Shown here: positions 12,255 to 41,430 of the stretch, one piece after another | Layout of the letters: each line of letters starts with the position of its first letter | Position numbering within the stretch: the stretch's first letter is position 1 | Source of the DNA: Seison nebaliae | Taxonomy: Eukaryota | Direction: 5' to 3' | Assembly: GCA_023231475.1 (NCBI GenBank) | Contig: JALJEE010001892.1 | Location: forward strand, 1 to 42,151 | Length of the DNA stretch: 42,151 nucleotides | Notes under the pieces: model-generated | What the model saw: only the letters and a program-made list of their open reading frames with translations | What the model was told of the DNA's origin: nothing | Databases searched by the model: none | Made by a program: the position numbers and the translations under genes

Positions 12255-12390
12255 TTAGATTTAAGGAATTCGGAGTGAAATTCTCCACAATCTATTTATT
12301 TTTCCTATATCTCACTTCACACCTCTCACTTAGTTTTGATATTTTTTAAAAACTTTCCTAGAAATTTTTTTTTGGACAAATTGAAAAATT

Positions 12391-15629: not shown

Positions 15630-16658
15630 ATGCTAATATTCTTAATAATCATCTCAATGTTAAGTTAAATTCAATGTTGTTAAGCAAATTCATATTTTTT
15701 AATGTTGATTAAATCTAGAAATGATTTCATCAGGAACCGTGTTTAAACTACGATGTCGAGTAGATATGATCGGTATTAGTATCACTGATGATAGTGTAGA
15801 TAACTATGGGAGAATTTTTAAAAATTATGAAGTGCTGACCTTGGGATGTAGACGGTCAGGACCCACACCTGCCCATCTTCTTTTATTCGGTAAGTGTGTA
15901 GAAATCACTAAAAAGCCAATACCATATGAACCTGAGCTACTTTCTTATGTCCGATTCTTCGATCCACAAACGGACAACGCTATTGTTTACAAACTGCTTT
16001 GTAAAGCAAAAGCATATGGACAGATTCCACAAGTATTCATTTTAGAAGACAGGGGTTTGATTGAGATTATGTTATTATAAAATTGGTTTTTAGAAACGGC
16101 AGTTCTTCCACCTGATGATGAGAAATTGAATTTTGATTTAATGGTTCAACCTCACTGTAAATCAGATATGAGGAAAAAATATTTGAAATTAAGACAAACA
16201 AATTGCGATGGAACTGCGGAAACATGTCTGTATGGTATCTGTGCTTCAGCCCGAATAAAAAAATGTTGGTCCGCAAAATTTAGTGGGAAATGCACAAAAT
16301 ATCTTAACAAGAACGATTTAGATCTGATATTGGGACGTCCTTATATATCGCAAAGTGTCTAGTTAACTTAATTATAATATATTTATAAATAGTTTGGAAA
16401 ATAATTTCTTATTGAAAACATTTATTTAGTGACGACTACTTCATCCATTCACCTTCCTCGATAAATTGGGCTATCGACTACACAATCATGGAGATCTCTA
16501 CTGAAGGAATGACCAAAGATAACTATCCTCAATACATAGCTTGCGGAGATTACTCTAAAACCGGTAGTAATTACGACGAATATACACCCCGGACAAGTTT
16601 CGCAATTTCAATGTCGGAATCAGGGAAATGTAAAAAAATATTGAAACCAATTTCTTAA
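15630..16658 (+). CDS. Orphan secreted Cys-containing protein, ~288 aa, four exons
   Basis: Exons 15630-15663, 15719-16054, 16094-16361 and 16430-16658. Three GTT..AG introns (55, 39, 68 nt) join in frame and supply a signal peptide MLIFLIIISMLKMISSG. Confidence 0.7.
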
Positions 16659-16911
16659 CATTTGAAAAATGCACCGACGAATTAGATCAATGTTTATTTA
16701 TATTTAGCCGTTACCTTATGTTGAATTTCTTATTTTTATAAAAGTACTAACTTAAAATAATTGATTACTTCCAAAGCTTTTAATTTAATGCTAATAATTT
16801 AAATAACATAAATTATTTGACTAAAATATAATATGGTCACTATGCCAACCATTGGGTAAAATCATGTAAATTACCAATATTTTTTTTTAAGTATCACCAA
16901 TCCTCATAGAA

Positions 16912-19900
16912 ATGAATAATCATAACACAATCACTTCTTATCATCCAATGTTCGATGCTCAGAAATTGCTGAATGACCATTTGGAGAATGTGAGGAAAAA
17001 TTTCAATAAACATCCATACAACAATCAGGATGGAGTTATGTTCGACCAGCATATTTTTGATAAACAATTTAGCAACGACAAAGATAAAATTGGAACGGAA
17101 AGAATAAAGAAGAAAATTATGAAGAACCAAACGAAATTCTCAGATGTAAGTGAAGTAGAGAGATTACCCGATGACTTACCAGAAACTGAAGATACCGGTT
17201 TCTTGGCGAAATTACAAGAAAAGAAAGAAACAGAGTTTCTAGCACTTTGGACTGATATGAAAGACAATGTCGGGAAATTTATTGAAGAAATGAATAGCAA
17301 AATTATGGATTTTAGCGAAGTGAATTTTGGAGAAATGGAAAAAAACTTTGCAGCCATTCATGAAAAACTGAAAGAGAATGAAAATACTAAAAATGAAAAT
17401 GTGAAGCGACGAGACTTTACGGATTTAGAAGAGACTATTCGAGATAATATTGAAAAAAATAAAGAATTGACCAATCTGCTAGACAATCATATTTCGAGGA
17501 TTGATAAAGAAACTGTTCAAAATATTAATGATGTTGTGAACCGTGCGGCGGAAATCCTCAATCGAATATTTCTTTATGATACTGCTGATCTGGTTCGAAT
17601 GATAAAAGATGAAGCCGCAGTTAATTTTGATTTTCCTATTTAGCCTTGAAGGAAATTTCTTAGAATTTAAATGGACGTATTATCGAAAACCGATTAGCAA
17701 TGACGGAATTGAAGAAAACTTTATTAGTTAAAATGACAGAAAGAGAACACGGATATTTGACAATAGTTAATGATCGGTGCAAAAATTGGAAAGTTGAAAG
17801 AATAACTTTTTTTACCTGCGACTTATTGTTTATAATTTTTTTATCTCATAAAAGGTCAGAAATATATTTAAAACTTTCTAGAACTCTTTTAAATGACAAA
17901 CATGCGGAATTAGTTGGAAAAATTAAAACTTACCAAAAGAATAAATTATTCGATCGTCAACATGACGTGGCTATACAATTGGACGTGCATTTTCAATCAT
18001 TGCAGTTTCTTCTTTTTCCCTTTAGGATAATTCGTCACTGATCTTTTAATGTTTAAGGGAATTTATCCCACCAAAATATGGTCAAGGGGAAGTTTATAAT
18101 TGGTATCAGAAAGTCACCAATATTATAACGACCGCCGAACAAATGATTGACCAATCAAATAAGGTTACTATGGGAAAAATTAGTTATTTTGTTGAAGGAT
18201 TTTTGATGAAAGTGGAAATAAAAAAAGTTAAATTTCTCGAACAAATTTCAAATAAGCTTGTCAAAAACATATCTACTAATTTCATAGAACGATGTGATTG
18301 AAGGTGAAATTTGTGATGTGGATCATGTGACAGAATACTGGCAAGAACATGTCTTATCAAAATTGAGTGAGCTGGAAGTTGAATTGAGAGAAGAGGCACA
18401 AAACGAAACGGAAATGATGGAAAACTATTTTAAGGCAGTCAAACTAAAAACTTACGAAATTCTTGCTTTTATGGAAAGTTTATATTTCTTTGAATTAGTA
18501 AAAATTCTTAATTTCCATTCTTATAGAAATTACTGATATTTGGGATTTACAAGATCGTGACTTGAAACGACAAGAAGATAATTTTGGGAAATTATTAACC
18601 GATTTCACTAATGAATTCGATGTGACTCATAAAGTTATTCATTATATTTTAATTTATTTGATAATCAAAAATTTCTTTAATTTCGTAAAAATTGTGGAAA
18701 AATTTAATTTAATGATCTAAATAAATTTAAAATTAATTTTAGAAAAAAGAAGGAACATTAATGCAACAGATTGATATGTTAAGGCAAGCATCGAGTGAGA
18801 ATCAGTTGAATAACGAAATGGAGGTGATTTGTGATAAATTACAACTGGTGAAAAGAAAGTTTATTTTTAATTTCATTTAACAAATTTTGAAAATGAATAA
18901 AATAAAGTTTTTTAGAAAGATATGAAGAATTGGAAGCATTAATTCGATTTTATCATTATATGATCGCATCATCAGTCACCAAATATGAGAATAATATTTT
19001 CTTAAATTTTAAAGTTCGATCTGATAAAGAAAAATCTTCCACATCAGATATCGAGATTGAATCGGTGAGAACCGAAACAGTTGTAACAGCGACGGGAACC
19101 GCAGCGGTTACTCCATCTCATACGTCGAACATAATTCTCGATCCAACGGAAGTGGAAGAAGAAGTTTTAACACCAGAAGAAAAATTATTGAGAAAATATA
19201 GAAATAAAAATTTAGTTCGATTAGCTAAAGTGGTAAAGGAAATGGATAAGGATGATTTGTTAAAAGAATGGACAGAAAAGTCGCAAGAATATTTGAAAAT
19301 GTTGAAAAAAACAGAAAAGGGTGAGAGAATTGAGATTAGTGAAGATGTCAGTTTGTATGATTTGAAGGAGAAAAGTGTACAAAGTGGCAGTACATCAAGA
19401 TCAACATCGAATGATGTGGAACCATCAATATTGGAGAAGAATGATGATCAGACAGCTAATATGGAGGATGATGTGGAGACTGTACCAGATGAGAAAAGTT
19501 CACTGAATGAAGAAGTGAAAAAAGTAGTAGAATATTTCACCATGTCATCAGATGATTTACCAGAAATTATTAAAAATTTCGATATTAATTTATCCGATTT
19601 TGATACGTATAAGAATTATGTAAAACTTGGAACGTTACGTCATTTGTTCGATTGGAAGACTAATTCGAAGAAGAGAACAGACATGGCGATCGATACGAAA
19701 ATGAATCAAGTGGAAGAAGAGATGAGTATGAAATTGGATGTTCATCGAAGACGTTTGAAAAATATCGAAATGAATGTGAGGAATGTACGTGTCGCTGAAT
19801 TAGTTTGGCATGCGGAACGTATGCAGAGACACGTATTAAGTGTAAATGATCAATTGGATAAAATCTTTCAATTACACGAAGAAGAGAAAGTGAAGTTGGA

Positions 19901-22631
19901 GAGATCATATGAAGAATTTATGAAACAATTCGTCGATCTCTACGACGAGATTTGTTCGTGTAAAAGATCGGGAAAATTTGAAATTTTAATGACGAAAATT
20001 CAAGAGAAGAAAACCGACATTATTGAACGAATAAGAATAGCAACGCGAGATTTGAGGAAAACGACTGATGAAATGATGTTCAATTTGAGAACGGCCAACG
20101 CAAATTATTTGGATTCGTTGAAGTTTATTTATTTTTTGATTTACTTTCAGAAATTCTTCTTCTTTCCAGAGTTTTCGCAGAAGGTGGAAATTATTCATTA
20201 AATGAAATAAAAGAATTTAAAAAGAAATTAGATGAATTGAACGAACATATCGATGAGAAGGAAACAGAGGTCGTTTCCTTGATAGAAAAAACGGAATTGG
20301 AAATGATAAATAATTCGGAGAATGAAGTGAACAAATTCCTCTCTCAGTTTCCACATTTTTTAAATTTTGCTTCAAACTTTTCATTTATTTATAGATTCAA
20401 TTTAAGTAAATCCGAATTGGAATTTAATGAGACTTTAAGTCGATGGTTTCTGTTACTTCAAACAGAAATCAAGAAAGAAGTAAAAAAAAGTAATAATGAT
20501 AAAAAGGAAATTGAGGAGAAATGTAAAGAACTGACTAGACTCATGGACGATTGGAATTTCCCGTTGAAACGAACTCGTAAAGTTTGAACATAAATTTTCG
20601 ATTGAATTTTTTCAATAATTTCCCAGTTAAATTTTTGTAAAGTCGTCAAACAAGAGTTGGAAGAATTACATAAACTTATCATGGACAGAGCAACATATTT
20701 GGAAGCGTTAGCACAACGACAAAAAACTTCTACACATTATCTCCAAGGAAGTATCGCCACAGGTAATTTTTAAATTTTCAAAATTTTTTTTCTTACTATT
20801 ATGATTAATACGATATTATTCAGCATTACGATCTTCAACTTCAGTTAGTAAGAAAGATGGATTAGGGAAGAGTATTGAATCAGTAAACGTAATTCGAGAT
20901 ATTTTGCGGTTATTTCCTTTTTAATATTCTTTATTATTATTAGTAATTTCTTTATTAATATTTAAATTTATAGAATTGTACCAAATGTACCAACAAAGAA
21001 GGAATCGAAAGAAAAGAAAGGAGATTCAGGACAAAGTGGAATGGTTAACACACAAAATTTACCAAAGTTAAAATTACCATAAATTAAAAATTTAACAATA
21101 AAATTTGAAGAATTCGTACTCGTAATCAATTGGAGCAGTTATATGAATTATTCAAAGAGCCGGAGATGGAAGGCAAAAATTCTTTTATCCCCAAAATTGT
21201 CGGATATTTACGGAATGCTATTGAAGGAGTATTAACATTAGGCGAAGTTTTCATTCATTTCCGTTTTTCAGTTTTATCCAAACATTTCCAGACATTTTAT
21301 AAAACGTATAAAGGAAGAAATTCGAAAACGGCCAGAGTTGCTATTCAAATCAAAGGAAGTTTCGAAGAATTCTCTAACGCTGTCGTAGAAAAATTTACAT
21401 CTTATTTCAATCAATCTATCGAATATCAAAAATTTGCAATTAACGGTAAAAATTTTAATTTTAAATTTAACATTCAGTTAACAAACATTTTAAAGATTTC
21501 CGTGCCAGTTTATGTTACCTGGATGAAACTCTATTGGCCGATGTGTCAAAAATGGAGTTATTCGTACTGAAAACAGATTATGCTGAACAAATCGAAAAAT
21601 TGATAAATGAAACGATGAAAGATGTTGAGGACATTCTAGCCAAATCGTTCATAGATCATAAGATTACTAAGAAAGATCTTCGACCAACATATGGTCATCC
21701 GAATTATTTAGGAAAATTGGAGGAGATTAATTTGCTGGAAATTCAAAGAATGTACGATCTCCTTACCAACATTATTTCAGTCAATTACAATTCTCAAGTT
21801 TAAAAATTCAACAAATTTTCATTTATTTAAAATTCATTTATTTTAATTTAAGGTGAAGTTGCAACAACTTGCGATTGATTTCCTAACTACTTTAGAGTTT
21901 CAATTGAGAGCGAATCTTGATATCTTTGAACATTTCGCAGTTCCATCAGATATCATTGATACAGGTTTTCCAGTTATTAGGATATAAATATATGATAATA
22001 TGAATATCAGGAGTCGTCACTGAAACTACTACGGGCAATGCCCAAAAAAATTTAGTTAATGACCAACAAGTGAATCATATCGAGAATTTTTATCGAAGAA
22101 TTCGATTAACAAGTTCAATAAAATTTAAAAATTTTTCTTGTTTCCTATTATAGACGACGAAATAAAATTGAATGAAATCGACAAATTGGATGATATGTTG
22201 AAAGAGGAATTGAAAAATTTCCCGCAAATTGATTTAACCATCAAATCGACAACTGATGATTTACCGACGTTGAATAGCGAACTAAGAAAAAAATTAACGA
22301 TGAATGTTCAAGTGAAGAAACATACAAATTCTGCACATCTCTTAATCGAGGAACGAAATGAAATGATAAAAGTTTTTCTTGAAATTTCACTTAAAAATTT
22401 CATTTTATTTGAAAGATTTTTATGAAATTTTATCGACAAAGTTGGAAAGATTTACGATTGAAGAAACAAGAACAAATCCAACAAATTTATGAGCAGAAAA
22501 GAAAATGGGAAAATTCCATCGAAGCTATTAAACAACTTTATGTGGTTCCTGATGAAACGCCAATAAAACCAGTATCATCTTTAACGGACGAAACTCAAAA
22601 AGAGATTATTAGTGTGGCTAAAACAAATTGA
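16912..22631 (+). CDS. CCDC180: CCDC180 (CFAP76) coiled-coil motile-cilium protein, ~1565 aa, 20 exons
   Basis: Introns: 17620-17663, 17828-17881, 18005-18057, 18227-18287, 18478-18526, 18634-18742, 18859-18919, 20123-20169, 20347-20394, 20582-20626, 20763-20823, 20909-20973, 21067-21110, 21247-21291, 21446-21495, 21798-21852, 21965-22010, 22113-22153, 22372-22415. Exons sum to 4698 nt with an open frame. Motifs VRMIKDEAA, EFIPPKY, NVRVAELVWH, FAEGGNYS and LRPTYGHP match CCDC180. Confidence 0.88.
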
Positions 22632-22652
22632 ATTGAATTTCCGAATAAATTT

Positions 22653-23513
22653 TTATCTCCATCCATATTTTGCATATCTCGCATATAATTCATGTCCGAC
22701 AACCGCACGTCTCTCCATCATAACTCCCATGATCCATTTATAGTAAAAGAAAGAAAGAATGCCAACGAAGAGTAAAATGAAAAGGGGATAGCCGAAACCA
22801 GCTAACCAAATATATGCGATCTCTTTCGGATGATTACTCCAAACGGGAATATATTTAGTTGGATTCGGCATATGATAACGACGTCTAATTTTCGTATTTG
22901 TATAAGTTTTATTAAAAATTAACGGCAATTCACCAATCAAAATATCTAATTTCAATAATAAAATTCAAAATTGAATAGAATTGAATTACTTAAAATCAAC
23001 CGATATCTTTCAGATGAGGTAAATTGGCCTTATGAAATGCTTTCAAAACTAAATTTACTATAGTGGGAATCTTCTCTAACGTTTTGATTAGTTCATACAT
23101 CTGATAAGCTCGATGGATTTTCATTTTCATGAAATCCGGTTCCATCCAAATGACCGTCATGATAAATCGATAATTTTCATAATCTATATAATTATGTTTC
23201 TCATCTATGGGAATGACGGTGTACATTTGACCTTGGATATTCTCAATGGAGAAAACGGTTTGTAAAATAATCGGGAGGAACAACTTAAGGAATTAAATGA
23301 AACAGAATTATCATGATTTAACTTCAACTTGTTGAAAATGGAAAATTGAGATAACCACTTCGTCCTTCGCAAACTCTTCGAGATCTCGATCAGGATTCAT
23401 GTTAAATGAGAATATCGTATAATATTGACATCCATTTATCATCTCTTCCACATTAATGTTCGTTTTCCTGATATTTCCAATGTGAATTTTAAGAACAAAA
23501 AAATTAACTCCAT
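22653..23513 (-). CDS. Orphan single-pass membrane protein, ~230 aa, four exons
   Basis: Exons 23513-23509, 23467-23356, 23283-23001 and 22945-22653 (693 nt, open). Three GTT..AG introns. C-terminal hydrophobic segment IWLAGFGYPLFILLFVGILSFFYY. 5' end uncertain. Confidence 0.65.
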
Positions 23514-23769
23514 GCTCTAATCAGACTTGTCTGATAATAATTATTCGAATTAAATCCAAATCAAAATCCGCTTTAATTCAATAACTAAATTTCTAACTAA
23601 AAATAATTAAATTTCTAATTTGCATTTTATTCTCTAATAAAACGGAAAAATATCATTACTTAATGGAATAAGCAAATTGAAAAATTTGGAATTGGATTGA
23701 TTTGTTTAAATCGCAATGTTTTTTTGAGATTTTGGATTCAAAATACGTGAAATAATAACCAAATTTCCA

Positions 23770-25175
23770 TCAAACTTTTTTACCATACAGTTTCCCTCCA
23801 GTGCTCACTACTCTCTTTTTACATCGATTACATTTTGAAAAACAGGTAAGCACGATAAGAAGTATCGAAAACGCTATTAAATTCATAAGACCCAAAGGTC
23901 GTAATCGTTCAAATGGGTTATCTTTAATTCGTTTGTGAATTAATCGTTGATAGATCATTATCGACGGTTCTTTGAGAACTATAATTTCAGTTAGCATAGT
24001 AAAAGAAGATGTTCTCTAACAAAATCCTTTACCGTCCTTCCAATAATTTCCAAACCAACCAGAGGATAGTCGACGATAGAGACATAATTCGAATTTATTA
24101 AGAGGAAATATAAATAGTGAAGTACCAGGAATGACATTCTTCATTAGAACGTCTCTCATAGAAGAGAAATTACCAAAATATGAATATGAAAAATTAGCAC
24201 CGCCTTCTGCATAGATTTCGTCATACTTTCCTTTAAACAACCTCTTCACACAACTATGGACATAACTATGCACCTGTGAAATTTGTAAGAAAATGCTACA
24301 GAATTAACTTCAATATAAAGGAACATTTTTTTTCGATATAACTATCCTACAAATTGCTTCTTGTTTAAACATGAAAATCTGACTATCCGTCGACAAGAAC
24401 GCTATCGGGAAAGTTGGATCAGTATCGCTGAAAAATATATAAATATCGAAAATTTGATGCCACATAAATGGAATCATCTAAACTTAAAATGTATCGTTCT
24501 CAATTTAACCGAACTAAAATAATTGAAAGGTATTATTTGCCAAATTTGGAAAAATAAGGTACCAGTGTACTGACAACGGGGTGATAACTTGAGGAAGATA
24601 TAACAGGGGAACCATGGTATTAATCTTTTATCCAACATAAGCGTCATAATTTTATCGACAACTGATGATCAATTTTAAAATAGAAAACTATAATTATTAT
24701 GAAACTAAACTCTCTCGGAGGAAACTATATTGCCCAAATTCTCCTTTAGGTAGAGACTGTACAGCTTTAGATAATGATGATTTCCGGCGCATTTGAATCC
24801 GTTTTGACTCTCCTTCGAATGGGATACAGGTAACAGTGTTGACTGTTGAATTGTCAAAGTTATCCATAAAGCTGTATTGGTATTCTATTAAATTTACATC
24901 AAGATTAATTCGCACTATCATAACTTTTCTGAAATTTCACAATTAACATATACAATTATTATCAAAGGAAGTTCAAATGATGAGAGTACTAACCTGGAAG
25001 AACAATATGATGTTGTACTACCTACATAAAAGGATTGTCCTTCAAATTTTTCGCAGGTTTGATTAGGTTTAATTACGAATACTCGAGTATAATGGTGTTT
25101 GAAATGAAGCAACTTAATTGTTGAGAATAATATTAAGACACTTAATTCAATATCTAATGATGCACTACAAATCAT
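23770..25175 (-). CDS. Orphan protein with a C-terminal transmembrane helix, ~374 aa, six exons
   Basis: Exons 25175-24994, 24928-24711, 24661-24484, 24427-24343, 24273-24021 and 23978-23770 (1125 nt, open). Five GTT..AG introns. TM segment LIAFSILLIVLTCF followed by a Cys/basic tail. Confidence 0.65.
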
Positions 25176-25569
25176 CGTTGAAATAATTCGAACGGAAAAT
25201 TCAATAAATTATATATCGAAAATGATTTATACCTAAAAAATTATGTAAAAATTCATTAGTTCTCGTATGACATAAATAAAAAATTCATGTGTCTAACTGA
25301 AATACCGTTAACCAGAAGAAATATTCGTCAAATATTTCTCACATATATTAATTGTTACATATTATTAAATTGTTTAATCATCCTCTGGTCAATAATCTTT
25401 ACACATTGGCTGAATCCTTGTTTTCCAGTTCCTACCTAATATAATACTAGAAAGTTCGATACTAAGAAGGTCACCAATTAAGATGGATTGAAAATTAAGA
25501 TTGAATAATTTTTGGATTGCAATTTATATTTTTTTTAATTAAACGAATTTAAATTTAACAATTTTATTA

Positions 25570-26600
25570 TTATAACTGAAAATTTTTAAATTAAAATTAA
25601 GATTATCATATATTCAACAAGCAATAGAATAGAGATGAATAATATAGAGAGACTAATAGAAAATGACATTTTATGAAATGTTTTCGATTTTCTAGATAAT
25701 TCCTACCGATCCTTCTTTACCCGAAATATATTTGGTTTGTTAATTCAGGCAACGATATAAGGTGTTTGAATTAAACTTTTCCCTCCTTTCAACCACATTC
25801 AATAACTAATGGACGTAATCAGACCATTTCTATAGATGGATATTAAAATAAATTTTGGAAATTTACAAATTAATAGGAACTTGTGGTGAATTATCCAGTT
25901 ACCATCCACTTCCATTCTTCAACCTCCGACAAAAGTCGCCAATTACAGGAGCTATAATAATCATTTTCAGTATAAAAATAATTTAATAAAAGAATAAAAA
26001 CGTTGGAGAAAATTATCGCCTCACCTTCCAATACTCCCTGGAAGACGTCTCTGTGAATTTTTTCTAGATGAGACTTCAAATTTAATATTGACATTAAAAT
26101 AATCAAAATTTTTCAAGAAACCTCTTCCATTCTTTAGAATTGAATGAATTCCACATGATTCAGTCTATGTGTTCCATGAAATTTTGAGTCCAATTATTGA
26201 CTCTTTCCATTCTTCTCGGACTTGTTTTCCTTTCTTCTAAGAATTTCTCTGATAATTCTTTCTCTTCATTTGGCGAAATCGTTGAATGTGGTAGTTTATT
26301 CAGATTCCCCATGTTTCCAAAGAATCGAGTAAATCCTACCAATTTCCTTTGTAAAATAGAAGTAACCGTTGGGAAAACCAAGTTCTATCTTCTTATCACA
26401 AAGTCCGGCTTGGACACCTAAAATTGTTTCGAAACGATCTCCGTTTCAAATAATCATCACCGATAATGGCTCTAATCGGTGGAATAAACTTTTATTGCAC
26501 TATATCAATAAAATGCGCAACGGAGATTGTTTGTTAGAAAAACAAAATTTAAAATTATGAAAAATGTAAAATAAATTCAACTTAAATAGAGATATTTCGA
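25570..26600 (-). ncRNA. Putative spliced lncRNA or microprotein transcript (or decayed gene) divergent from UBR
   Basis: AT-rich GTT..AG intron-like segments at 26121-26074, 26001-25952, 25880-25830 and possibly 25618-25576 separate GC-richer exons. All spliced frames hit stops. The longest ATG ORF found is 50 aa (26312-26160). Boundaries approximate. Confidence 0.4.
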
Positions 26601-26653
26601 ATTTCTGTAACTGTCTTAACGGTTTCAAAATAATATTCTTCGAATTTCCTTAT

Positions 26654-26698
26654 GGAATGTTCGAGAACTTCTAGAAATTATCATTGGTCAGCACGTCA
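26654..26698. promoter_or_regulatory. Heat-shock element with adjacent CCAAT box and TGACGTG (ATF/CREB/XBP1-type) site
   Basis: gGAAt-gTTCg-aGAAc (26654-26668) overlaps cTTCt-aGAAa (26668-26677). ATTGG at 26683-26687 and CACGTCA at 26692-26698. Confidence 0.55.
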
Positions 26699-27460
26699 TA
26701 CTTATCCTTAAAGCGGGAGTTTTTTTTCTTCCAACGGCCTATTGGGAATGGCTTTAATGAATTTAACGGAGAATTTTGAATGGAGAATTGCAATTTTTCA
26801 AAATTTTTATAAATTAAATATTTGGCGTACGTTTAATTTAGATGAGAAAAATTTTAAGAATTTTATGTTTCCTAAATTAAATTTAAAAATTCCATTAGAA
26901 CTTCCATAATTTATAAGGAATGGTTAATAGACATATGAATTAGTATTTTGTATTTTTTTATGATTTGTAATTTTTTTGAACAATTTTGTGCATTATTCAA
27001 TTATGAATAATAATTAAAAGGGAAACCTTATGGAGGAGAAAGACAGCTACTAATTTGAAAAGGAAAAAGGAAATTTGGAATATAAAAGTGAATGAGGAGC
27101 AAATGAAAATTGAAGAATAAGAGATTGGTAATAATAGATGTAAAATTGATTTGAGAAGAAAGTAGATTTTATTTCCAAATGTTATTTTTTATTTTGAAAA
27201 AAAAAACATTTTCTTTTATAAGAATCGAAGCTTAGGACGACGTATCATTTATAATCTTGTGTAGTGATCTATTACTAACTAATTTTTATATACGCACACA
27301 AACACATACACACTCCCTTGTTGGGAAATTTGTCATTTTATCATTCATTCTTTTGTATTAGATTAATGAAAATGGATTTAGAGCGACAATAAGAAGTTGA
27401 AAAATAAATTTTGTTGTTTTCCTCGATATCATATTCGATTAGTATTTTCCTCATTGTCTA

Positions 27461-30400
27461 ATGAAGAAGAGGATGATGGAAGGGAAACGTGAAAAGAATT
27501 TAAAGAGAATAGTGACATGTAATTTAACATTGAAGAATAAATGGCTATTGGATTGGAATGAGACAGCGGAAGATAAGACGATCATAGAAGATTCTATTGA
27601 AGATCGTTCAGGATTTTTTGATTGCTGTAAATTGTTGAAAGAAGCGCTCTCAGAAGATTTAAAGGAGAAGAATGGAAACGATAATACTTTTGACAGTAAT
27701 TTATATCGACGTCTTTTGAGTTATTGGGCGAGAATTGTTCCACTCACCTTCAGATGGTCATTCACTGACGTTCCGTTTAAAGTGCACACGGTGAAATCGA
27801 AGAGTGGAATCGATAATTTACAATTACATCTATTGTCAGTTCTCGATTGGTTATTGATATCGGACGACGAAAAATTTGAATGTCCGAATAAATTTGTAGA
27901 ATTTATGTTGGAGGGAACGACGAACTTTTTCAATAATTTGAAAATAGGGAAAGCGCCTGAGAATATTTGTGGGAAGTTATTCAAAGAAGCCGAACCGACA
28001 TATACGTGCAAAGAGTGTGCAGTGGATAGTACGTGTGTTTTCTGTTACAATTGTTTTATGCATTCCACTCATCGATATCACAAATATCGAATGTGCACAT
28101 CGAGTGGTGGAGGTGGATATTGTGATTGTGGTGATGTGGAAGCGTGGAAAAAAGACTATTGTTGCGACATTCATTCACCTGATGGTGATGGTGAGAGTTT
28201 TGAGAATCGTGACGATTTACCTGATGAATTATCATCCAGAGCAGTTTATGTTATTGGATCTGTCCTCCAATATATCTCACTCGTTTTATCGCCACTTCAT
28301 CTGAAGGATCTTCCCAAGGAATTGGAGGATGCATGTGTTAAATTGAGAATTCTCGTTCCCGTCACTGTGTTACCCATAGCAGGTGTTATCCGAAGAGAAG
28401 ATGATGACGATGATGATGATATTGATGACGACGAGGAAGAAGATGAAGAAGAAGAAGAAATAGAAGACGCAGGTGATGATCAAGATACTACTCCGAACGA
28501 TTTCACATTTGCTACACAACCGCCAACATTCAGTTTTGGTCAACCGTTAATTATTTTTTTTTAATTTTCTTCAATTTTTTTTTAGTCAATTTAGTATTGG
28601 AACACCACCAATTAGACGTGAAATGAAAGAGGCGAATGAAGATGTGGCCATTGAGGAGGAAGTATATAAGAGTAAGTGTATGGACATGTTCATCACAACA
28701 CTCTACAACGACGAAGCACATACATTCCATGAGATAACTTCTTGTCTACAAGCGGCAATCAAATGTAAAGAGGAGAAAGCTTTGATCATTGCATCGACTG
28801 TCGATCATAACGGTCGTTGTTTCATCTCTCGTGGATGCAAGACACAATGTACATTAATCAGTCAATATATTACAATGAAAACGAAAGGACCGAATGATGG
28901 TGTACGTTGTGAAGCGATGGATAGTAGTTTCCTTCTCCATCAGATGTTCGCTGAATATCTCATTTTATGGTTGAGGAAACGTGTGGATACATCGAATAGT
29001 TTACGTAGAATATTTTGTCAATTGGCATTCGAAATGAAATTGAATAAAGAATTATGTAAAAAAATTTCGTCGATGCATATGGAGAATGAGGAAGGAGGAG
29101 AAGTTATAGAATCATCATCAAAACAGACAATAAAATCGAAAATGTTTCTGCCAATCCGTTCTTTTTATCGTTCCATCAATTTGAATTGTGTCGATCGAAA
29201 TAAAACGAACGTACAATCGATCGATATCGATGAAGATGATAATCGTAAATTTACACTGTGGATCGACCAGTTTATGGTGTGGGAAAAATATTCATGGAAA
29301 TCCGTTCGAGATTCACTTCATCAACTTTTCATTTCATCATTCCTCCTTAATATGGATACGAAAAAAGATTATTCTTTACGATTCGCCGACAATTATGAAT
29401 ATGTGTGGCGATCATATATTAGTGATGATGATCATTTCGTTTCCGTTCGACAATTGTCTGTTCAAATTTTTACCGTACCATCAATCGCTCGTGAATTGAT
29501 CGCTGAGAAAGACATGTTAGCTCAAGCATTGCGATTAGCTAAAGATTTCTTCGTGATGGATGTGGATCTTGTTCGATCAACACCGACGATCAATAAATTT
29601 CATATGTTGATGATCGACGTGTCATATTTGATGTTAGTGGAACCGACAAATTGGACGAATAATTTACGATTATCATTCGTTCATGGATTTTATGAATTAT
29701 GTTTATTATGTGAGAAATTGATGTTCGCCGATCGAATACAACGTCAAGTAAATCAACATGTCAAATATGAGAGTGATGTTTGTGATCAATATTTCAATTT
29801 GATGAGAATCGTAGAACGGTGTCAAAACCATTTCATTAAATGGATGGTAACAGATCAGAAATTAATTCAATGCATCTTCTCACTCTATTTGTATTGTACA
29901 CAATTGTTCATGATCGAACATGAAGGAAATCTTCCTAATTTCAAATCGAATTTTGACGATTTCATCAAACCAGGAGACAAAAAGAAACATTATTCATCCA
30001 ATCGTTGTATCAGATGTTATTCACATGATGTTTTCGTTAATTTCGTCTCTTTTCATATCACTTATCTTCGATTATTTCCACAACTCATTCTCGCCATGAA
30101 TCGATTAGATGTCAACATTTTCGATTATATCAATAATTTCCATCTTCTTATTCAAAATATCATCAGTAAACATAAAGATCATACATCATATCTCAGACGA
30201 TTACAATTTAATCGATTGAACTCAAATAATCAATTACTCTCCAAATACAATCCATTAGACGAATTGTTAATTGTGGTAACTATCGAAAATGATGAAAAAA
30301 TATCAGGAAAAAAAATTCGAGAAAAATCACAAGATCATCAACATGAAAGTGTTTCCGATACTCAAATTCTCGCTCTCGATCCACATAATTCCCTTTTCGA

Positions 30401-33400
30401 TTATGAAGATGTTAAAATGGATGATGTGGAACCGATTAAATCATTTTCAACATCATCAACTGGATCATCATCATCATCGTCGAGAAAGAAAAGACGATTT
30501 AATTCATTGAGTAATCCCATCGGATTATTGAAAAATAAGAAAAGTGAAACGGCAATATTAAGAAATGCATCATCACTCTCCTCATCTATAACGGCAACGA
30601 TATCATCATTAAAAAAAGATGTAACTTCTAAGAAGAAAATGAACGAGAAAACATTTCAGAATATCGACGTATCTCCGATAAATTTGATGAGAAATGTTTC
30701 AAAATATGAAAATATGAATTTCTTATATTTCAATTTCAACGTAAAAGAACGAGATGAAATGTTGAAAGATGATTTTCTTCTTTTCCTCTTCGATCACAGT
30801 CTCCGACCAATCGTCCTCAATTATCAAATAAAAGATGGTCTCTGGCGACGGAACGGTTATTCTGCCATCACTCGATCAATAATGTATCGTGATGAGAATG
30901 AGAATGTGTCACATTTCATTTCTGATCTTCGTACCATTCAATCGATTTTCGCTTTAGTATCTCAGAAACCGGTTTCTTCACGTCGATTCGAACCTTTATT
31001 AAGCGAATATAAATTAAACGATGTCAATTATGATTTACGTCCGTGGGAGAATATGTCGACAAATACGAAGAATGTAATTTATTTATTGAATAGTCGAAGA
31101 ATAACGAAAGATAATTTAATAGTTGATGATTTAATTTATTATATTTGTCAAAAATTCGGTTTTCATTCACAAACGGAAAAAACTCCACGATCATCATCTA
31201 ATCGATATGATTGGAAGAAATTTATTAATGTCATCGAATTACTCATTTGTATAGTGAGTGAAAGATATACTTTAGGAATTAGTGAAATTGAAGATGATGA
31301 TATTCTCCGTCATGCCGTTCTACAAAATCTCGCATCTGGTGATATGTCACATGCGAATATTATTCGTCATATCGGTCGATCAGATAAAGATGATATCATT
31401 TCGAAATATATCACCGATTGTGCCATCGTTCAATCATCTCATACAAGTGATTTATCGACATTATTAAATAAGAATTCTTATCGTTTGAAATCGGAATATT
31501 GGAATGAAATTAATCCATTCTATGTGTCGGGTGATGAGAGTAAACGATCATTATTATTAGAAGAATATAAATTATCATTGAAAAAGAATCTTCCATTATC
31601 ATTGCCACCACCACCAAAATTACCGGAATGGAAAGGAATTTATTCGTCGATTGGAAAATCGATTTTATTGGAAGCGAGAAATTTAATTAATTTTACGAAA
31701 TTACTATTTAGTCAAAATGGCGCTTTAAATCATTTGAAAAATATTGAGAGTACTTATGCTAATTCGATTTATCTTCTCTTATTATCGTTAGATGAATTCG
31801 AACGATTAGAGAAACAAGTCGAAAGATTCATTTTCGATTGTTTAACCGAAATCTCTTTAACAATCCGTCGTGATGGTAAATTAACGGTGACAAATACGAT
31901 CGACGTAAAAGAGAAGAATTTCATTTATTACACCATGAAACGAATGGAACGATTTATGAGATTCTCACCGAATTTATCAAATTATTTCCATCTCTGCCAA
32001 TACGTCCAATATCGATATTATATCAATTTGGTGGAATCAACCGAATTCTTTTTCATTTATCTCCATCGAATGCATCAATTGATGATTATTCTCCATAAAC
32101 ATAAAAAGACATCGGAAGAGAAAGATATGAAATTACCATGTGTCGAACTCATCAACAAATGTATCGATCGATTTCATGAAATTTATTCTCGATATGATTT
32201 CGTTTCAATTTTAAAAGAAGAACAAAAAAAAATCCAAGAACACCAACAGAAAGAAGAAGAGAAACATCATGAAAATCAAATGGGAATGAAAAATAAAGAA
32301 GAGAATAAAGAAGAAGTTCAAAAAAGAAGAGTTGCTGAAAGGAAAGCAAGAATTCGTCGAATGATTAATAAGAAACAGAAGAAATTCGAAACGAAAATGG
32401 CGGATGAATTGAGTGAATTGAAAAAACAAGAATTATTAAATGATGATGATAAGAAGAAGAGAAATAAAGGATTAGAAAAAAGAAAAGAAGAATTATTGAG
32501 TGAAATCGAGTTAGAAGAGAAAGATCATGCCGTTTGTATCGGTCCCGATGTGATTCATCAACGAAATATTTTAGAAAATTTCAATTTAGTAAAAGATATT
32601 TTAAATGATAAAGAGCAATCACTCCTACCGAAATATTTAAAGAAGAGTACACGACCCATACCATTTGAAAATGAGACGAATTGTATCGTTTGTCAACAAT
32701 CCACCAAAATCAAAAGTGATGGTGATTGTATGATTTTGTGTGCTTCATTGGAAGCGTCGAATACATTGTCGAGTGATCGATTAATGTATTTCACTTCCGA
32801 TAAATTTTTAGCGAATCAATATTTAGTTGATCCACGTCATTATTTTGGTATTTATCTATCGTCTTGTGGTCACGCTATTCATTATAGTTGTTATTTACGA
32901 TTGAAGAATTCCGAATTACGATTCATCAGTCCAGGAAGTTGGGTGAGTAAATGTCCGTTATGTACGGAATCGTGGACGGTTGGATTACCCATCTTACCAC
33001 TCATTCAACAAACGACATGTTTAGATGATCAGAAATCATTGTCATATGAGGCATGGTTAAGAGCAATGATTAATACGAGTTCATTAAATAATTTAAATAA
33101 TAATGAAAATTCTGTAATTTTAAATGAATTTAATGATCTTCATCAATTACTTCTCTCATCAACAGCTGCCATCGATCTACAATTGAAGAGTGACGACAAT
33201 TCTACTCCTTCACCTAATCAATTATTACAATTCTTCAATGTCAATAATTTATCATCATCTCTCAAAAATTACTTCTCAATACCATCACCATTACCGAATA
33301 TTGGGACGGATGTTTATGATCAATTAATCTCCATGTTCGATTGGGTCACTGCTACCATATCATTACCAACTATTGACATCCCGTCTATCGACCAATTACA

Positions 33401-34994
33401 AGATAAATATGAATTGCCGACAGAAGTGTCGGAAGATTTCAATTCTCTTCTCACTATGCCCGTCACATTCACACAAATTCCAGACGGATTATCCAAAGCT
33501 CTCAGTTGTCTACCTGAACGTCTTCGTTCTCTCCATACATATCTCCTCAAACTCGCATTCGAACGACATGCAAATGAGCAGCGAATGGATTCGAAGAAAA
33601 TTCAAAAACATGAAAAACAACAGACAACAGAACCGTCGACGACGGAATCGAATTCAAATACCACCAACACCGGAGGAACATCATTGACTGACACTATGGC
33701 AGATTTGAATGATAATGATCGTTCCGATCAATACTTACAATTCATCGAGGGGCCGTTTAGCGAATTTCGACATTTGGGAGAAATTTATCGTTTGACGGAA
33801 AATCAATTTCATCCAATTCCTATTATGGCTCAATGTCGTACACAACGAATAAAGAAGCGTGATAAAATGGAGAAAATTTTGAAAAAGAATTATATGAGAA
33901 TGTTAAAACGACGACAAACGAACACGAAGAATCTTCTCGAACAATTAATCCATTTCAATGGAGAATATCAGAAATCATTAGAATTGTTCTCGTTCGAAGA
34001 TCTGACAATTGGAACGGACAAGAATCAATGGTTGACAAGTAATGAAGGTAAAATCGCTTCGTTATGGAATTGTTTGGCTTATACGATCAAAGTGGAAGAA
34101 CGCAATTCACGTTTATGTAATTTACCTGCACATCATAAGAATGAGAGAATCGAGAATGAAATTCGAAATAATATGAATGAACATTCTTTCCATTCCTTAC
34201 ATTTAGATGATGATTTGATTGATGATCAATCATTTATCATACGAAAAAAGAATGAGATACCAATTCCTATAAAGAATATGGCGAAACAGAAAAGTTTTTA
34301 TGACGAATTAGATTCTGTAGAAGGTTCGATTTATTTCGACACGAAAAAGAGTCTGATGGCGGAGAGTGTAAAAATAAAAATTGATGCATTGGTCAGATAT
34401 GCCTCATCTTATGTTCTCTTATCGACAATGGATGGAATTAATGTTTTGAATAATAAAAGTAGTTCAGAGAAGAATGAGGAAATAAATAAAGATAATACTT
34501 CATCAACTAATCATTCGAACAACAACAACAACAGTAACGTGAATAATAATTTGAATGAAATGGAAATGATGGATCATGCAGGTTATGTGCAGATTGGTGG
34601 TGGTGTCCCTCAAGTCAATCCAAATCGAAATGATCTCAATTTTAGAGAGGAGTTAAATGGAATGAACGTTTCGAATTTGTTGAGGAATCTCTTCGAAGAT
34701 CCTTCAGATGTTTTTTACGAAAATGACAATAATATGGAAGATTTCCGTAATAATTTCGCTTCAGCTGTTTTCGAGAGAGATGTTGATGTGGGAGTGAATA
34801 ATATATTGACAAATAATCGACAACAACAACAACAACCTCAAGAAACTGTTGGACAAGAAATTGAATCAGCTGGTACGGAATCCAATCTTCCTCCAACTAA
34901 TTCAACGACGAACGGGAATATTTTAGAAACTACTTTCCCAATTCGTTTAAGTGTCGATAATTTCCAAAGAGAATTATCATTTAATAATAATGAA

Positions 34995-35032
<38 letters not shown>

Positions 35033-38000
35033 TGAAGATACATCGTCAGAAAATGAGTTAATAAAAAATGATAAAGGAAATGAAGATATTGGTTCGAGAA
35101 AGGAATATTTTATTTCATTTCTCAAATATCTTTCCGAATTTTATGTCAATCAGAATTCCATTTCCAGATCCTTCATAGATACCGTTTCCCCATGGTTATT
35201 ACCGTTTTCATTTAATATCCGTTCGATGGACATTCAAAGATTGAGAGAAATGTTATTGGCAGTTCTCAGTCTCCCAACAAATTTTTCTTCTCAACCAAAT
35301 TCCGACGAGAACGCTCCACAATCCACTGAGATGAACGACGTTCCATCATCTGGTACAGTGAATCATCAGAATTTTATTTATGTCCAAAATTTATTAAAAG
35401 CCATTTCTTCCGTCGGATTACCGATGAATTTCACTCAATCATCACATGAGGAAAATGGAGAGAATTCATCAGGAGAGAATATTGAACAACAAACGAGAAA
35501 TGATGATCGAGGAGTAAATTTATGTGGAAATGAAATTGATGAACGATCGATCAGTTCAACAATTCGTGAATGGTTAGAACGAGAAGATATCGTTTCTACA
35601 ATGACATCAGCTGCCGATTATGCTCTCTCATTACTTTATCGAATGATTAGTCCATCGATTGGTGATACACTTCGATTAATTCAAGAATTGTATAAAAGTA
35701 ATCCGACCATTTTCTCCAAGAATTGGATGGATTCATTCTCCCAAATACTTTCCGCACCATCCATCGATGATAAACGAACCATTATCATTACATTTATCAT
35801 GAAATATTGTTCAGAAATCATCATTGCATTATTCGCCCCAATAATTGACGCGAATTTCACTGACGAATATTCCGAAATTCGTGACGGAAATAATTTATTG
35901 AAATTCGATTCATTCTCTGCATTAATCTCTCTCGTCTTCTCACTACCACATGCATTTGGCAACGCAACAGCATTCGCTTCCTTATTGAATGACATTCTTC
36001 CGAAGAAGACTAATGAAACAAGACGACCCACCGTTCCCATGGAAACGGATGATTTGATGAAAGACTCACAAATCTACCAAACACTTTCTCCACTCTCAGA
36101 AGCTAATTCGAAAATGAATTTCTCTAATTATCTACCATCAATCAATGCCGTCTCTTTGTGGAATAATCGAATCGATATGTTCCACACATATTCTCAATTA
36201 TGCAATTATTTCGAGACAATTTTCCATCCATTCAAACACGAAACATTCAACAATTTAAAAAAAGAAGAAAAAAATTCAAATATTTCTTCCAATTCCACAA
36301 CCACAACAACTAATACTACAACAACAACAACAACGAGTACAACGAAAGAAAAACCGTCAATTTCAAAATCAGCAATCGATTCGGCGAAATTAGCCTGGAA
36401 GAAATTATCGACAACTTCCATCACACCCAAAACGACCATTCAAGCTGCCATCTGTACAGGAACATGTCTCAACGATTTGTATTTGATGCGATTATTCTTT
36501 CTAGTAAATGTGACACAAGTCTCATTACGATCTGATACGAATACAACTTTATTTCAAATGGAAAATCCTACGAAACCGAAAAAATTTAAAAATTTTCAAA
36601 ATTTATCTTTCGACCGAACATCCAATATCGCTTTCGAGGAAATATTCCAACACCAATCCAAGGATGTGGAAGAATTGATGAATGGAACGTATGACGGAAA
36701 GGAATCGAAACGTTTTTATCGAAAATTGAAATATTATCAGAAATATCATTTGAGAAAAGGTGAAACTTTTATAATTCATTTTCAAATTTACTTTTCTTTC
36801 CCCTAAAGAAACTGATAAGAAAATCAATAAAATGATGAGTGTTATCGAAGAGTTTGAGTGTATGAACTCCCAACAATTCCATCAGTTTATTTTTCATTAT
36901 CATTTCATAATACTCAAATTCTCTCTAAATTTTTAGGTTCCTATTAACCAACGTCCATTTCCATCGATCAATGTTACCATTCTTACGACATTGCGCCATT
37001 TTTTTCGAATGTTTGACAAATTCGATACGAATCCATATTCCGTTTTGTTAGAATAATTCCTTTCACAACTTTTACTAATCCCATCTTTTCATAGCGGCCA
37101 CTGTCTCTGAAGAGTTTTTTGCTTTGACAGAATATTTGAATTTGAAAGATCATTATTTGTTGGATGGGAAGAAAAATTCGGATGGAATTGATTTTACCGG
37201 TGAATTGTCATTAATTCGACATTGGTTACGTCCTATACGACGTTGGTTGTTACATGTGAAGAATTTGCGAGAAGATATTTCAGCAGAAATCGATTCGATC
37301 TTAAGAACAACGAAAACAATGAAAGAACTTGAAGTGGAAATGGGACTGTTCTATTTATCGCAACGAGTGAAACTTCCATTTTCGATGAATCAAAATTATT
37401 CGTCTCTCATTCATCTGGAGATGCCAATGAACATCAACTTAATGAATTTCCTTCCTTACGAATTCAACGATCTAATTCAATTATCAACAACATTCAGGTT
37501 TTCATGAAGAAGTTACTGAATGAAAATCATCAAATTTTCCCTTTTTTTCAGATGTTTCGAGAGAACATTAGCAATGAAAAGAAACCAATTGAAAATTAAA
37601 AAAAATTCTTCCAGACCCATCTACAATCGTCTACAAGTATTCGATTATATTAGTGATCAGGGCATGGAAATTGGTTAGTCTCTTCAAATTAATGATAAGC
37701 TTATGAGAAATTTTTTTTCTAATTCTCACAGATACATATCAACGATCAACCGATATTCCTTATCGATTGACAATTTGTTTATTATGTGGCGAATTATTAT
37801 GTGGTTTACCTGAATGTTATTGTGCAACGGAACCGCGACAATCTGTTTTTAAAGGAGATTTTGATGATGAAAACGGTCCAGCCGAGACATTCCTTTCTGA
37901 TGATGCTGAATATATTTGGAGAATATCACCAGAAACGTTAAATTCATTATATAAAGACGATTTGAAAGAAAAAAAGTATGATGCACGAACACTGCACACA

Positions 38001-38335
38001 ATGCAATGTGGTGCTGGTCGATGTATTTTCATGCAGGTGGCGAACTCTTTATGTTTCGTTTCTACTATTTCATGCAACGCTGCTGGTCAAATGACTTCGA
38101 AAATTTATCAAATTGAAGGACCGTACACTGACGATCATGGTGAAGTTGATTCGATGTTGAAGTTAATTTAAAATTTTCTCATTAAAATTCCATTGTCTCT
38201 TCTAGACGTGGTAATGCATTATATTTGAATGAACAACTCTGGCGAGGAATGATGTCCATGTATTCTCAACACAAACTTTACAGTTTCCTACGAATGAGTT
38301 TGCAAAATCCCAACAGAATATATCATGTCGCATAA
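27461..38335 (+). CDS. UBR1/2: UBR1/UBR2-type E3 ubiquitin ligase (N-recognin), ~3509 aa, eight exons
   Basis: UBR box CGKLFKEAEPTYTCKEC...GYCDCGDVEAW, ClpS-like LYNDEAHTF, LWRRNG, RING CIVC...CGHAIHYSC...CPLC, LPFLRHCAIFF, CLLCG, PYTDDHGEVD and LKRGN. Exons 27461-28545, 28586-36759, 36809-36884, 36937-37046, 37095-37497, 37552-37673, 37732-38161 and 38206-38335 (10530 nt, open). Confidence 0.93.
34996..35030 (+). repeat. (AAT)n microsatellite encoding poly-Asn in UBR
   Basis: About 11 consecutive AAT codons in frame. Confidence 0.9.
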
Positions 38336-38789
38336 ATGGAAAATTAGCGGAAATTGAATTGTTATGTATGTCATTCCTGCTCAAATTCGTCATTCTCAAC
38401 AACTACACAACGAGATAAGATATCGTGTTAGAAATATTTTTCAGATCTTTAAAATTATTTCGATTTTAGTCTTTCTATTTTAATCTATATCGAATACATT
38501 CAATATTTATCGGTAAGAAAAATAATTTATAAAACTTATCCTTTCACCTCTAAAATTTGTTCAACTAAAATATACTTTAAAATATTCTTAAGTTATATGG
38601 TAATATGACGGAAGAATATTATTTTGAGGATTAGTTAAATCGGATAGTAATATTGGAGAATTTTAACTTTAATCGGTTATTTAAATAGTTACTGATTGTT
38701 AATGGTATTACTATTATTATTATTATTATTACACCACTATTTTGATTAAATGAATAAATTATTTATTGCATGCATGACTATTGTACACA

Positions 38790-41215: not shown

Positions 41216-41222
41216 ACAAACG

Positions 41223-41430
41223 GAGTGAGTTTCTCTCCGCAATATAACCAGATGAGTGAGTTCCTCTCAAAAATTGAAAAATAAGGTGAGTTCCACTCCG
41301 AAATATTGAAAGTGGGTGAGTTCCTCTCCAAATTGCAGTATTAAGCATTTTTCCATTGGTGAATTAATTCACTCATTAGAAGTGAAGAGTGTTTTCCGGT
41401 CCAAAAATTAAATAGCGGTGAGTTCCTCTA
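41223..41430. repeat. ~30-bp-period array of a GTGAGTTCCTCTC core with divergent spacers
   Basis: Cores start at 41225, 41256, 41286 and 41316, with a further copy at 41418. Confidence 0.85.

What the first reader, a model, noticed from the sequence alone, without database searches (positions are those of the whole stretch)
16912..38335. Rewired 5' splice-site code: introns begin A|GTT and lack +5 G
Seen: of 26 introns in CCDC180 and UBR placed by reading frame and protein similarity, 23 start GTT (GTTTAT, GTTAAT, GTTTTC, GTTATT...). Only 3 have G at +5, and 16 have A at exon position -1 (7 G, 2 T, 1 C). All 14 introns modelled in five other genes also start GTT, although those picks are partly circular. 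At 20577/20582 a GTAAAG donor must be skipped in favour of GTTTGA, otherwise a stop follows. Established: major-spliceosome donors are G|GTRAG, read by the U1 5' end and the U6 ACAGA box. GTT-type donors such as Entamoeba GTTTGT keep +5 G. Inference: these sites have almost no complementarity to standard U1/U6 beyond GT. The organism may have a variant U1/U6, or may select donors by U5 loop-1 pairing to A-rich exon ends plus proteins. This is the best candidate for an undescribed system here.
Basis: partly seen in the sequence, partly recalled or inferred. Interest (0 to 1): 0.9.

Follow-up and report, generated by a model that had tools for sequence, protein, structure and literature searches.

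The report
Rotifer introns start A|GTT, not G|GTAAG
In this piece of the genome of the tiny marine animal Seison nebaliae, 31 of 34 predicted introns begin with GTT and none has the usual GTAAG/GTGAG start, so its splicing machinery likely reads intron starts differently from other animals, possibly one letter further along.

Summary
The window is from the rotifer Seison nebaliae. A model blind to the donor motif gives 21/26. No frame-preserving GTRNG donor exists near any of the 26 junctions. Over 34 introns: GTT 31 (18.6 expected), GTRAG 0, AG|GT 5. No RNA confirmed these junctions, and Seison snRNAs could not be obtained, so the mechanism is inferred. New here: the consensus (A/C)A|GTTAR equals the standard signal slid one base, and all three non-GTT donors are G|GTRA. 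I favour U1 read in the +1 register, possibly with C8>A, but +6 G is not enriched and rivals fit almost as well. Precedents are Entamoeba, Fritillaria and rare human shifted sites. This scan noted GTT or shifted donors earlier in Bonamia and an unidentified protist. I found no report for rotifers in the searches run. Verdict: new variant of a known kind, interest 0.62.

The parts
16912..22631 (+). CCDC180/FAP76 gene, 19 introns (17 GTT, 2 G|GTA)
   Evidence: P0001 exact map; Pfam DUF4455/4456; PDB 9ijj_F E 9e-30
27461..38337 (+). UBR-family E3 ligase gene, 3509 aa, 7 introns (6 GTT, 1 G|GTG)
   Evidence: Pfam zf-UBR, ClpS, PRT6_C; open frame; no NCBI model retrieved
23770..25175 (-). SNEBB_004309, 380 aa, no family; 5 introns, all GTT
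   Evidence: P0003 exact map
22653..23513 (-). 241-aa gene of no Pfam family; 3 introns, all GTT in the longest model
   Evidence: exhaustive enumeration; Pfam blank on two exons
17620..17663 (+). intron gca|GTTAAT
17828..17881 (+). intron att|GTTTAT (only donor possible)
18005..18057 (+). intron gca|GTTTCT
18227..18287 (+). intron aaa|GTTAAA (3 alternatives)
18478..18526 (+). intron aaa|GTTTAT (only donor possible)
18634..18742 (+). intron aaa|GTTATT
18859..18907 (+). intron aaa|GTTTAT
20123..20169 (+). intron gaa|GTTTAT
   Evidence: blind model prefers another GTT 6 nt upstream
20347..20394 (+). intron tca|GTTTCC
20582..20626 (+). intron aaa|GTTTGA; rival donor ctc|GTAAAG at 20577 with a later acceptor
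20763..20823 (+). intron cag|GTAATT (canonical-register type)
20909..20973 (+). intron gcg|GTTATT
21067..21110 (+). intron aaa|GTTAAA
21247..21291 (+). intron gaa|GTTTTC
21446..21495 (+). intron acg|GTAAAA (canonical-register type; only donor possible)
21798..21852 (+). intron caa|GTTTAA
21965..22010 (+). intron cag|GTTTTC (only donor possible)
22113..22153 (+). intron caa|GTTCAA (only donor possible)
22372..22415 (+). intron aaa|GTTTTT (only donor possible)
28546..28585 (+). intron acc|GTTAAT (acceptor 28585 or 28594)
36760..36808 (+). intron aag|GTGAAA (canonical-register type; only donor possible)
36885..36936 (+). intron tca|GTTTAT; blind model prefers a GTG 27 nt upstream (0.62)
37047..37094 (+). 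intron ttt|GTTAGA
37498..37551 (+). intron cag|GTTTTC (only donor possible)
37674..37731 (+). intron ttg|GTTAGT
38162..38205 (+). intron gaa|GTTAAT
   Evidence: gap-free against P0002, score 70 against 57, 35, 28 for alternatives
24929..24993 (-). intron cag|GTTAGT
24662..24710 (-). intron aga|GTTTAG
24428..24483 (-). intron taa|GTTTAG
24274..24324 (-). intron aat|GTTCCT (NCBI choice)
23979..24020 (-). intron ttt|GTTAGA
23468..23508 (-). intron gga|GTTAAT
23284..23322 (-). intron gaa|GTTAAA (alternatives: 2 GTT, 1 GTG)
22946..23000 (-). intron tcg|GTTGAT

Best explanation
The predicted short, AU-rich GT-AG introns of this Seison nebaliae window mostly start (A/C)A|GTT(A/T)R, and are likely removed by the ordinary major spliceosome, with U1 snRNA likely pairing one base further into the intron than usual (inferred), possibly helped by a single U1 change, C8 to A (predicted). 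In that register U10 faces A-1, C9 faces G+1, A7 faces U+3, and the two pseudouridines face A+4 and purine +5; U+2 mismatches C8 unless C8 has become A. The minority G|GTRA donors would use the normal register. Because the helix is weak, intron length (39-109 nt, median 49), near absence of G (6%), a TTNYAG acceptor and U5 loop-1 pairing to A-rich exon ends would carry much of the definition (inferred). Shown: intron positions by frame, deposited models and partial homology, and the base frequencies. Not shown: any Seison snRNA, any RNA junction, any protein factor.
For: (34 introns): +3 T 31 (18.6 expected); +4 A 16 (8.2; P 0.003); +5 purine 24 (14.0; P 0.0004) with A 19 and G 5; -1 A20 G9; -2 A20 C8 G2. 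This is the standard MAG|GTRAG pattern moved by one base. Within 28 GTT donors, -1 A 18 (10.5 expected) and -2 A/C 23 (14.6) against codon-position background. All 3 non-GTT donors have -1 G and +4 A, against 6 of 31 GTT donors with -1 G (Fisher P 0.014), and all 3 pair better in the canonical register. A standard U1 arm, taken from locus L064, shows excess pairing over a composition null when C9 faces G+1 (z 3.6) but not in the canonical register (z 1.4). The best single change in that register is C8A. A +1 shifted register is proven for rare human sites (PMC4856993, passages) and was raised for Fritillaria (PMC13326754, Discussion part 1). Unchanged U1 arms are the rule in most lineages with odd donors (Entamoeba preprint passages).
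Against: +6 G, which faces U1 C4 in the shifted register and whose change to C abolished measurable binding of the shifted test oligo (Table 2), is not enriched: 2 of 34 against 2.0 expected; +7 T is at background. In absolute pairs the GTT donors do not prefer the shifted register with standard U1 (12 better, 11 worse). One free substitution ties the registers: U6A canonical 6.23 pairs, C8A shifted 6.21. Eight registers were scanned, and an implausible one (U1 A3 facing G+1, about 3 pairs) scored z 4.0. Duplex energies are weak and hardly separate true donors from decoys (AUC 0.50 standard, 0.58 C8A). A at -2 (20 of 34) is not paired by G11. The idea was fitted after seeing the consensus, on 34 introns from 4 genes, and no U1 sequence was obtained.
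Confidence: 0.35

Rival explanations
1. Unchanged snRNAs read in the normal register, with U1 pairing marginal. Donors are chosen at the tri-snRNP step by U5 loop-1 uridines pairing A-rich exon ends and U6 ACAGA pairing +2..+4 (G44 wobble with U+3, unmethylated A43 with U+4), plus proteins and intron definition by length and AU content.
For: U5-type scoring of -3..-1 gives AUC 0.67 and standard U6 gives AUC 0.66 against 160 decoys. The first base of the next exon is also A-rich (18 of 31 against 11.5 expected), which U1 cannot explain. Loss of U6 m6A shifts C. elegans splicing to sites such as AA|GUUGU (PMC11347140 passages). Fritillaria keeps an unchanged U1 5' end despite far odder donors. 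C. merolae lacks U1 snRNP altogether (PMC10158995 passages).
Against: The known U5 class is AG|GU, not AA|GU, and only 5 of 34 fit it. One G-U wobble is a weak reason for 91% T at +3. +5 A>G and +4 A enrichment are not predicted.
Confidence: 0.3
2. Entamoeba-type co-evolution: U1 pairs in the normal register but carries substitutions (position 6 U to A, probably also C9 to U and C4 to U) that match AA|GUU.R.
For: U6A is the best single change in the canonical register (AUC 0.76; 6.23 pairs), and the next best are C9U and C4U. It explains -2 A directly. Entamoeba and Mastigamoeba are precedents. Natural U1 genes with C9U exist in metagenome contigs of unknown organisms.
Against: It needs up to three changes against none or one. 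Entamoeba donors are near-uniform and keep +5 G, whereas these are degenerate beyond +3. No compensatory U1 arm in an animal turned up in the papers read.
Confidence: 0.17
3. The U6 ACAGAGA box is changed (for example G44 to A, C42 to U) so that it reads U+3 and purine +5, while G|GTRA donors rely on strong U1/U5 pairing.
For: The -1G versus +3T coupling resembles the U5/U6 see-saw described in PMC11732430. A changed box (ACUGAGA) is reported in C. merolae.
Against: The box is catalytically constrained (established knowledge). It does not explain -1 A and -2 A/C enrichment within GTT donors. Untested.
Confidence: 0.1
4. Artefact or local effect: misplaced junctions, T-rich composition, an intron-generating transposon, or a peculiarity of this window.
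For: No RNA junction confirms these introns. The NCBI models are predictions and also choose GTT at three doubtful upstream introns. Only 4 genes were sampled. An unmodelled gene holds a possible AG|GTGAGG donor at 26024 (-).
Against: No canonical alternative exists near any of 26 junctions. The motif-blind model gives 21 of 26 GTT. +3 T is far above background. There is no shared sequence, terminal repeat or target duplication among the 34 introns. Transcript gaps elsewhere in the species have the same sizes.
Confidence: 0.08

Closest known systems
+1 shifted U1 register at atypical human 5' splice sites (Roca and Krainer 2009, not held; seen through PMC4856993 passages, and PMC9311317 passages)
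   Same: Standard signal slid one base: A at -1, pyrimidine at +3, A at +4/+5.
   Different: Human cases are rare, and the test oligo depends on +6 G. Here the pattern would be the default (31 of 34) and +6 G is at background.
Entamoeba GUUUGU(U) donors with co-evolved U1 ACAAAC (bioRxiv 10.1101/2022.06.08.495308, passages)
   Same: Nearly all introns have U at +3; major spliceosome.
   Different: Entamoeba is intron-poor, uniform through +7 and keeps +5 G. Seison is intron-rich, degenerate after +3, lacks +5 G and has A-rich exon ends. Its U1 is unknown.
U5-class AG|GUNNN donors and METTL16/SNRNP27K-sensitised sites (PMC11732430 parts 1-3 of 7; PMC11347140 passages)
   Same: No +5 G; exon side carries information; coupling between -1 G and intron positions.
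   Different: The class is AG|GU, 5 of 34 here. The majority here is (A/C)A|GUU, 18 of 34, with a near-fixed +3 U that the class does not have.
Fritillaria borealis non-canonical introns (PMC13326754 abstract and Discussion part 1)
   Same: An animal whose major spliceosome serves a genome-wide changed donor signal; the authors raise a shifted register.
   Different: There 95% of introns break GT-AG; here all modelled introns keep GT-AG, which was also an assumption of the modelling.
Bonamia GTT micro-introns and protist GTTGCG donors
   Same: GTT starts; frequent AAG acceptors in Bonamia; a shifted-register reading for the protist.
   Different: Bonamia introns are 19-30 nt; the protist class is a minority and keeps +6 G. 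Different lineages; not tested here.

Membership tests
Major (U2-type) spliceosomal introns | GT...AG ends that restore a reading frame | tested here: met
   All 34 fit; GT/AG was also the search constraint
Major (U2-type) spliceosomal introns | Donor of class NN|GURAG or AG|GUNNN | tested here: not met
   0 and 5 of 34 against 53.6% and 45.1% in human
Major (U2-type) spliceosomal introns | Removal from mRNA at these positions | not testable with these tools
   No RNA holder listed; no row for these genes in the held part of the transcript table
Minor (U12-type) introns | RTATCC donor | tested here: not met
   0 of 34
+1 shifted-register donors | Better fit to U1 when slid by one base | tested here: inconclusive
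   Excess over null z 3.6 against 1.4, but 12 better and 11 worse in absolute pairs
+1 shifted-register donors | G at +6 facing U1 C4 | tested here: not met
   2 of 34, 2.0 expected; so it may work like these sites but is not filed as one
+1 shifted-register donors | Rescue by suppressor U1 in the shifted register | not testable with these tools
   Needs an experiment
Entamoeba-type co-evolved U1 system | U1 5' arm complementary to the changed donor | tested here: inconclusive
   Laying Seison DNA contigs on a foreign U1 locus gave nothing
Entamoeba-type co-evolved U1 system | Uniform GUUUGU with +5 G | tested here: not met
   +5 G 5 of 34; +4 split A16/T15
Introner (transposon-made) introns | Shared sequence, terminal inverted repeats or target duplication | tested here: not met
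   Best pairwise score 31 against 31.3 shuffled; TIR score at control level; 20 of 34 with no junction repeat
METTL16/SNRNP27K-loss lineages | Loss of the genes, with +4 U preference | tested here: inconclusive
   Genes not searchable (no genome); +4 T at background and +4 A enriched, which does not favour loss

The most novel reading that the evidence does not exclude
Seison is the first animal whose U1 snRNA reads the bulk of its introns in a permanently slid register, fixed by a C8-to-A change in the otherwise invariant U1 5' arm, so that the genome-wide donor code has moved by one nucleotide (CA|GUUAA) while a minority of old G|GURA donors is still read the old way.
Probability: 0.2. Interest if true: 0.87.

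Novelty: new variant of a known kind. Interest (0 to 1): 0.62.

Why it matters
Almost all human donors fall into two classes (GURAG or AG|GU); 29 of 34 introns here fall into neither while keeping GT-AG. How a donor consensus can change across an intron-rich genome, and whether snRNAs follow, is an open question. Seison has a public genome and RNA-seq, so one Infernal search and one junction logo would decide between a slid U1 register, a co-evolved U1 or U6, and U1-light selection. In practice, splice models trained on other animals should mis-score Seison genes, which may inflate its reported 36.5% missing BUSCO genes (my inference, not tested).

Tried and rejected
The RNA run search returned 'no RNA holder listed'; X1 and X2 cover introns and behave as DNA, and X6 and X7 laid nothing. 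Four searches of the GMAP transcript table in PMC8351084 supplement 2 found no row for these genes; only 19,906 rows of a longer, cut file are held, and the unseen part may hold them. Supplement 1 had none of six splicing or gene-loss terms. Rfam found no snRNA in the window. Laying runs X1-X4 at 80% likeness on two foreign U1 genes (L064:480-1200) laid 0 contigs; there was no positive control, so this says nothing about Seison U1. U6 and U2 were not attempted. No Seison UBR model was retrieved. The HMMER search with a UBR exon gave 3 repeat-driven false hits, and the PDB search with it gave nothing. The Atlas gave no answer. A minus-4 register with an AAACUU-type U1, perfect on paper for AA|GUUU, was considered: it gives AUC 0.64 by pair count and the best energy separation (AUC 0.66, U2A), but +4 T, -3 T and -4 G are at background and it does not predict +5 purine; kept only as a minor possibility. 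Introner origin and U12 type were rejected. The gene at about 25830-26560 (-) could not be modelled (0 models) and was left out of all counts, as were the ambiguous WTAP intron and three doubtful upstream introns of P0001. Literature searches showed no description of Seison or rotifer donor consensus. Mark Welch and Meselson 2001 on rotifer introns (cited) was not seen; Roca and Krainer 2009 is not held.
Full report
Identity. A CCDC180 exon matched one protein at 100%, labelled SNEBB_004307 of Seison nebaliae, on a contig of the window's length; a neighbour matched SNEBB_004309. Seison is an epizoic rotifer with a genome of about 46 Mb and 32% GC (PMC8351084, passages). CCDC180 is confirmed by Pfam and PDB 9ijj_F, and UBR by Pfam.

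Observation. The deposited model P0001 places the same 19 CCDC180 introns, each with one GT..AG solution. P0003 adds 5 of 5 GTT, and a small gene enumerated without a motif adds 3 of 3. How the NCBI models were made is not known to me, so they are a second prediction, not proof.

Circularity. All frame-preserving GT donors within 45 nt were listed. None is GT[AG]NG at any of the 26 junctions, and 13 junctions have no GTA/GTG option. A model using only codon statistics, intron composition and length, with the donor flanks masked, chose the modelled donor at 22 of 26 and a GTT at 21 of 26. It disagreed at 20123 and 38162, choosing other GTTs; homology supports the modelled sites. It also disagreed at 20582 and 36885, choosing a GTA and a GTG; these are unresolved. 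Seven CCDC180 junctions align without a gap to the PDB homologue, two have gaps nearby, and the rest lie outside the printed alignment.

Chance. Intron bodies are 48% T, 34% A, 6% G. Over 34 introns, +3 T is 31 against 18.6 expected (P about 6e-6), +4 A 16 against 8.2, +5 purine 24 against 14.0, +5 G 5 against 2.1 (P 0.05), +6 G 2 against 2.0. Exon ends of GTT donors are enriched for A at -1 and A/C at -2 over codon-position background. None is NN|GTRAG and 5 are AG|GT; in human these classes hold 53.6% and 45.1% (PMC11732430). The three non-GTT donors are all G|GTRA (Fisher P 0.014). Acceptors are TTNYAG-like, with 8 of 34 AAG and A as the next exon base in 19 of 34.

Genome-wide hint, weak. 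In parts 1 and 200 of 400 of the held GMAP table I counted by hand 81 distinct transcript gaps of 41-99 nt, the size of the modelled introns (median 49). 72 are printed as deletions and 9 as introns, while all gaps of 112 nt or more in those parts are printed as introns. As I recall it, GMAP calls a short gap an intron only if both ends score well on its built-in splice model. That would mean most Seison introns score poorly, but the rule is recalled, donors and acceptors cannot be separated, and there is no control species.

Mechanism. Written against the standard MAG|GTRAG, the Seison consensus (A/C)A|GTTAR is the same pattern moved one base, with +2 held at U. A standard U1 arm shows excess pairing over a composition null in that register (z 3.6) and not in the normal one (z 1.4); the three G|GTRA donors fit the normal register. 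One change, C8A, would close the helix. Against this: +6 G is at background, though the human shifted test oligo needs it (PMC4856993); absolute pairing does not favour the shift (12 against 11); a canonical-register U6A change fits equally (6.23 against 6.21 pairs); an implausible register scored z 4.0; and energies barely separate donors from decoys. U5-type and standard U6 pairing each separate donors from decoys modestly (AUC 0.67 and 0.66). The slid and substituted U1 readings share one prediction, an A facing U+3. I put the slid register at 0.35, unchanged snRNAs with U5/U6 and proteins at 0.30, an Entamoeba-type U1 at 0.17, a changed U6 at 0.10 and artefact at 0.08. The shifted-register lead came partly from earlier notes of this scan on a protist. 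The attempt to read Seison U1 from DNA runs was blank and uninformative.

Comparison and novelty. It works like a major-spliceosome system with a changed donor signal, as in Entamoeba and Fritillaria. It fails membership in the human shifted class (+6 G), the Entamoeba type (+5 G, uniformity), U12 and introners. Searches showed no report of this in Seison or rotifers. The genome paper's main text has only two hits for 'intron' and one for 'splic', none on donor sequence. Subscription literature and one rotifer intron survey were not seen, and no other rotifer was measured, so the trait may be wider than Seison. Verdict: very probably a real feature (about 0.9), new variant of a known kind, interest 0.62.

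Noticed in passing
window 15712-16891 (+): The NCBI model P0001 fuses about 260 unrelated residues to CCDC180 through three doubtful GTT introns; the first (16055-16093) removes an in-frame stop between two ORFs with no Pfam hit. Probably a separate decayed element.
   Followed up: partly
window 1468-4625 (+): WTAP/Mum2 gene with one likely intron ending at 2646 and two in-frame donors, taa|GTAAAA at 2570 and aaa|GTTTAA at 2576; long charged repeat tail at 3452-3985. A clean test site for the donor rule.
   Followed up: partly
window 25830-26560 (-): Unmodelled gene with a possible fully canonical AG|GTGAGG donor at 26024; enumeration gave no model.
   Followed up: partly
acceptors of all 34 introns: T at -6 in 28 and at -5 in 23, AAG in 8, and A as first base of the next exon in 19; a strict CTRAY branch motif in only 4 of 31.
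   Followed up: partly
window 28586-36759 (+): A single 8.2-kb exon in UBR; the 3509-aa model is almost twice the length of the yeast homologue P0002 (1831 aa).
   Followed up: no
window 11709-12258: MITE-like inverted repeat, arms 11749-11855 and 12110-12216, 95% complementary.
   Followed up: no
window 404-840 and 40756-41434: Two inverted, 76-85% similar copies of a repeat near the two contig ends; the right copy is followed by at least four spaced GTGAGTT motifs.
   Followed up: no
window 12745-14523 (-): Uninterrupted 592-codon ORF with JmjC and JHD matches below the curated cut-offs.
   Followed up: no
L064:530-1133, L062, L111, L112: Metagenome contigs of unidentified eukaryotes carry two different U1 genes side by side, one with the standard arm and one beginning AAACUUACUUG (C9 to U); L047 and L084 have ACUUACAGUG. 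Natural U1 arm variants worth a look.
   Followed up: partly
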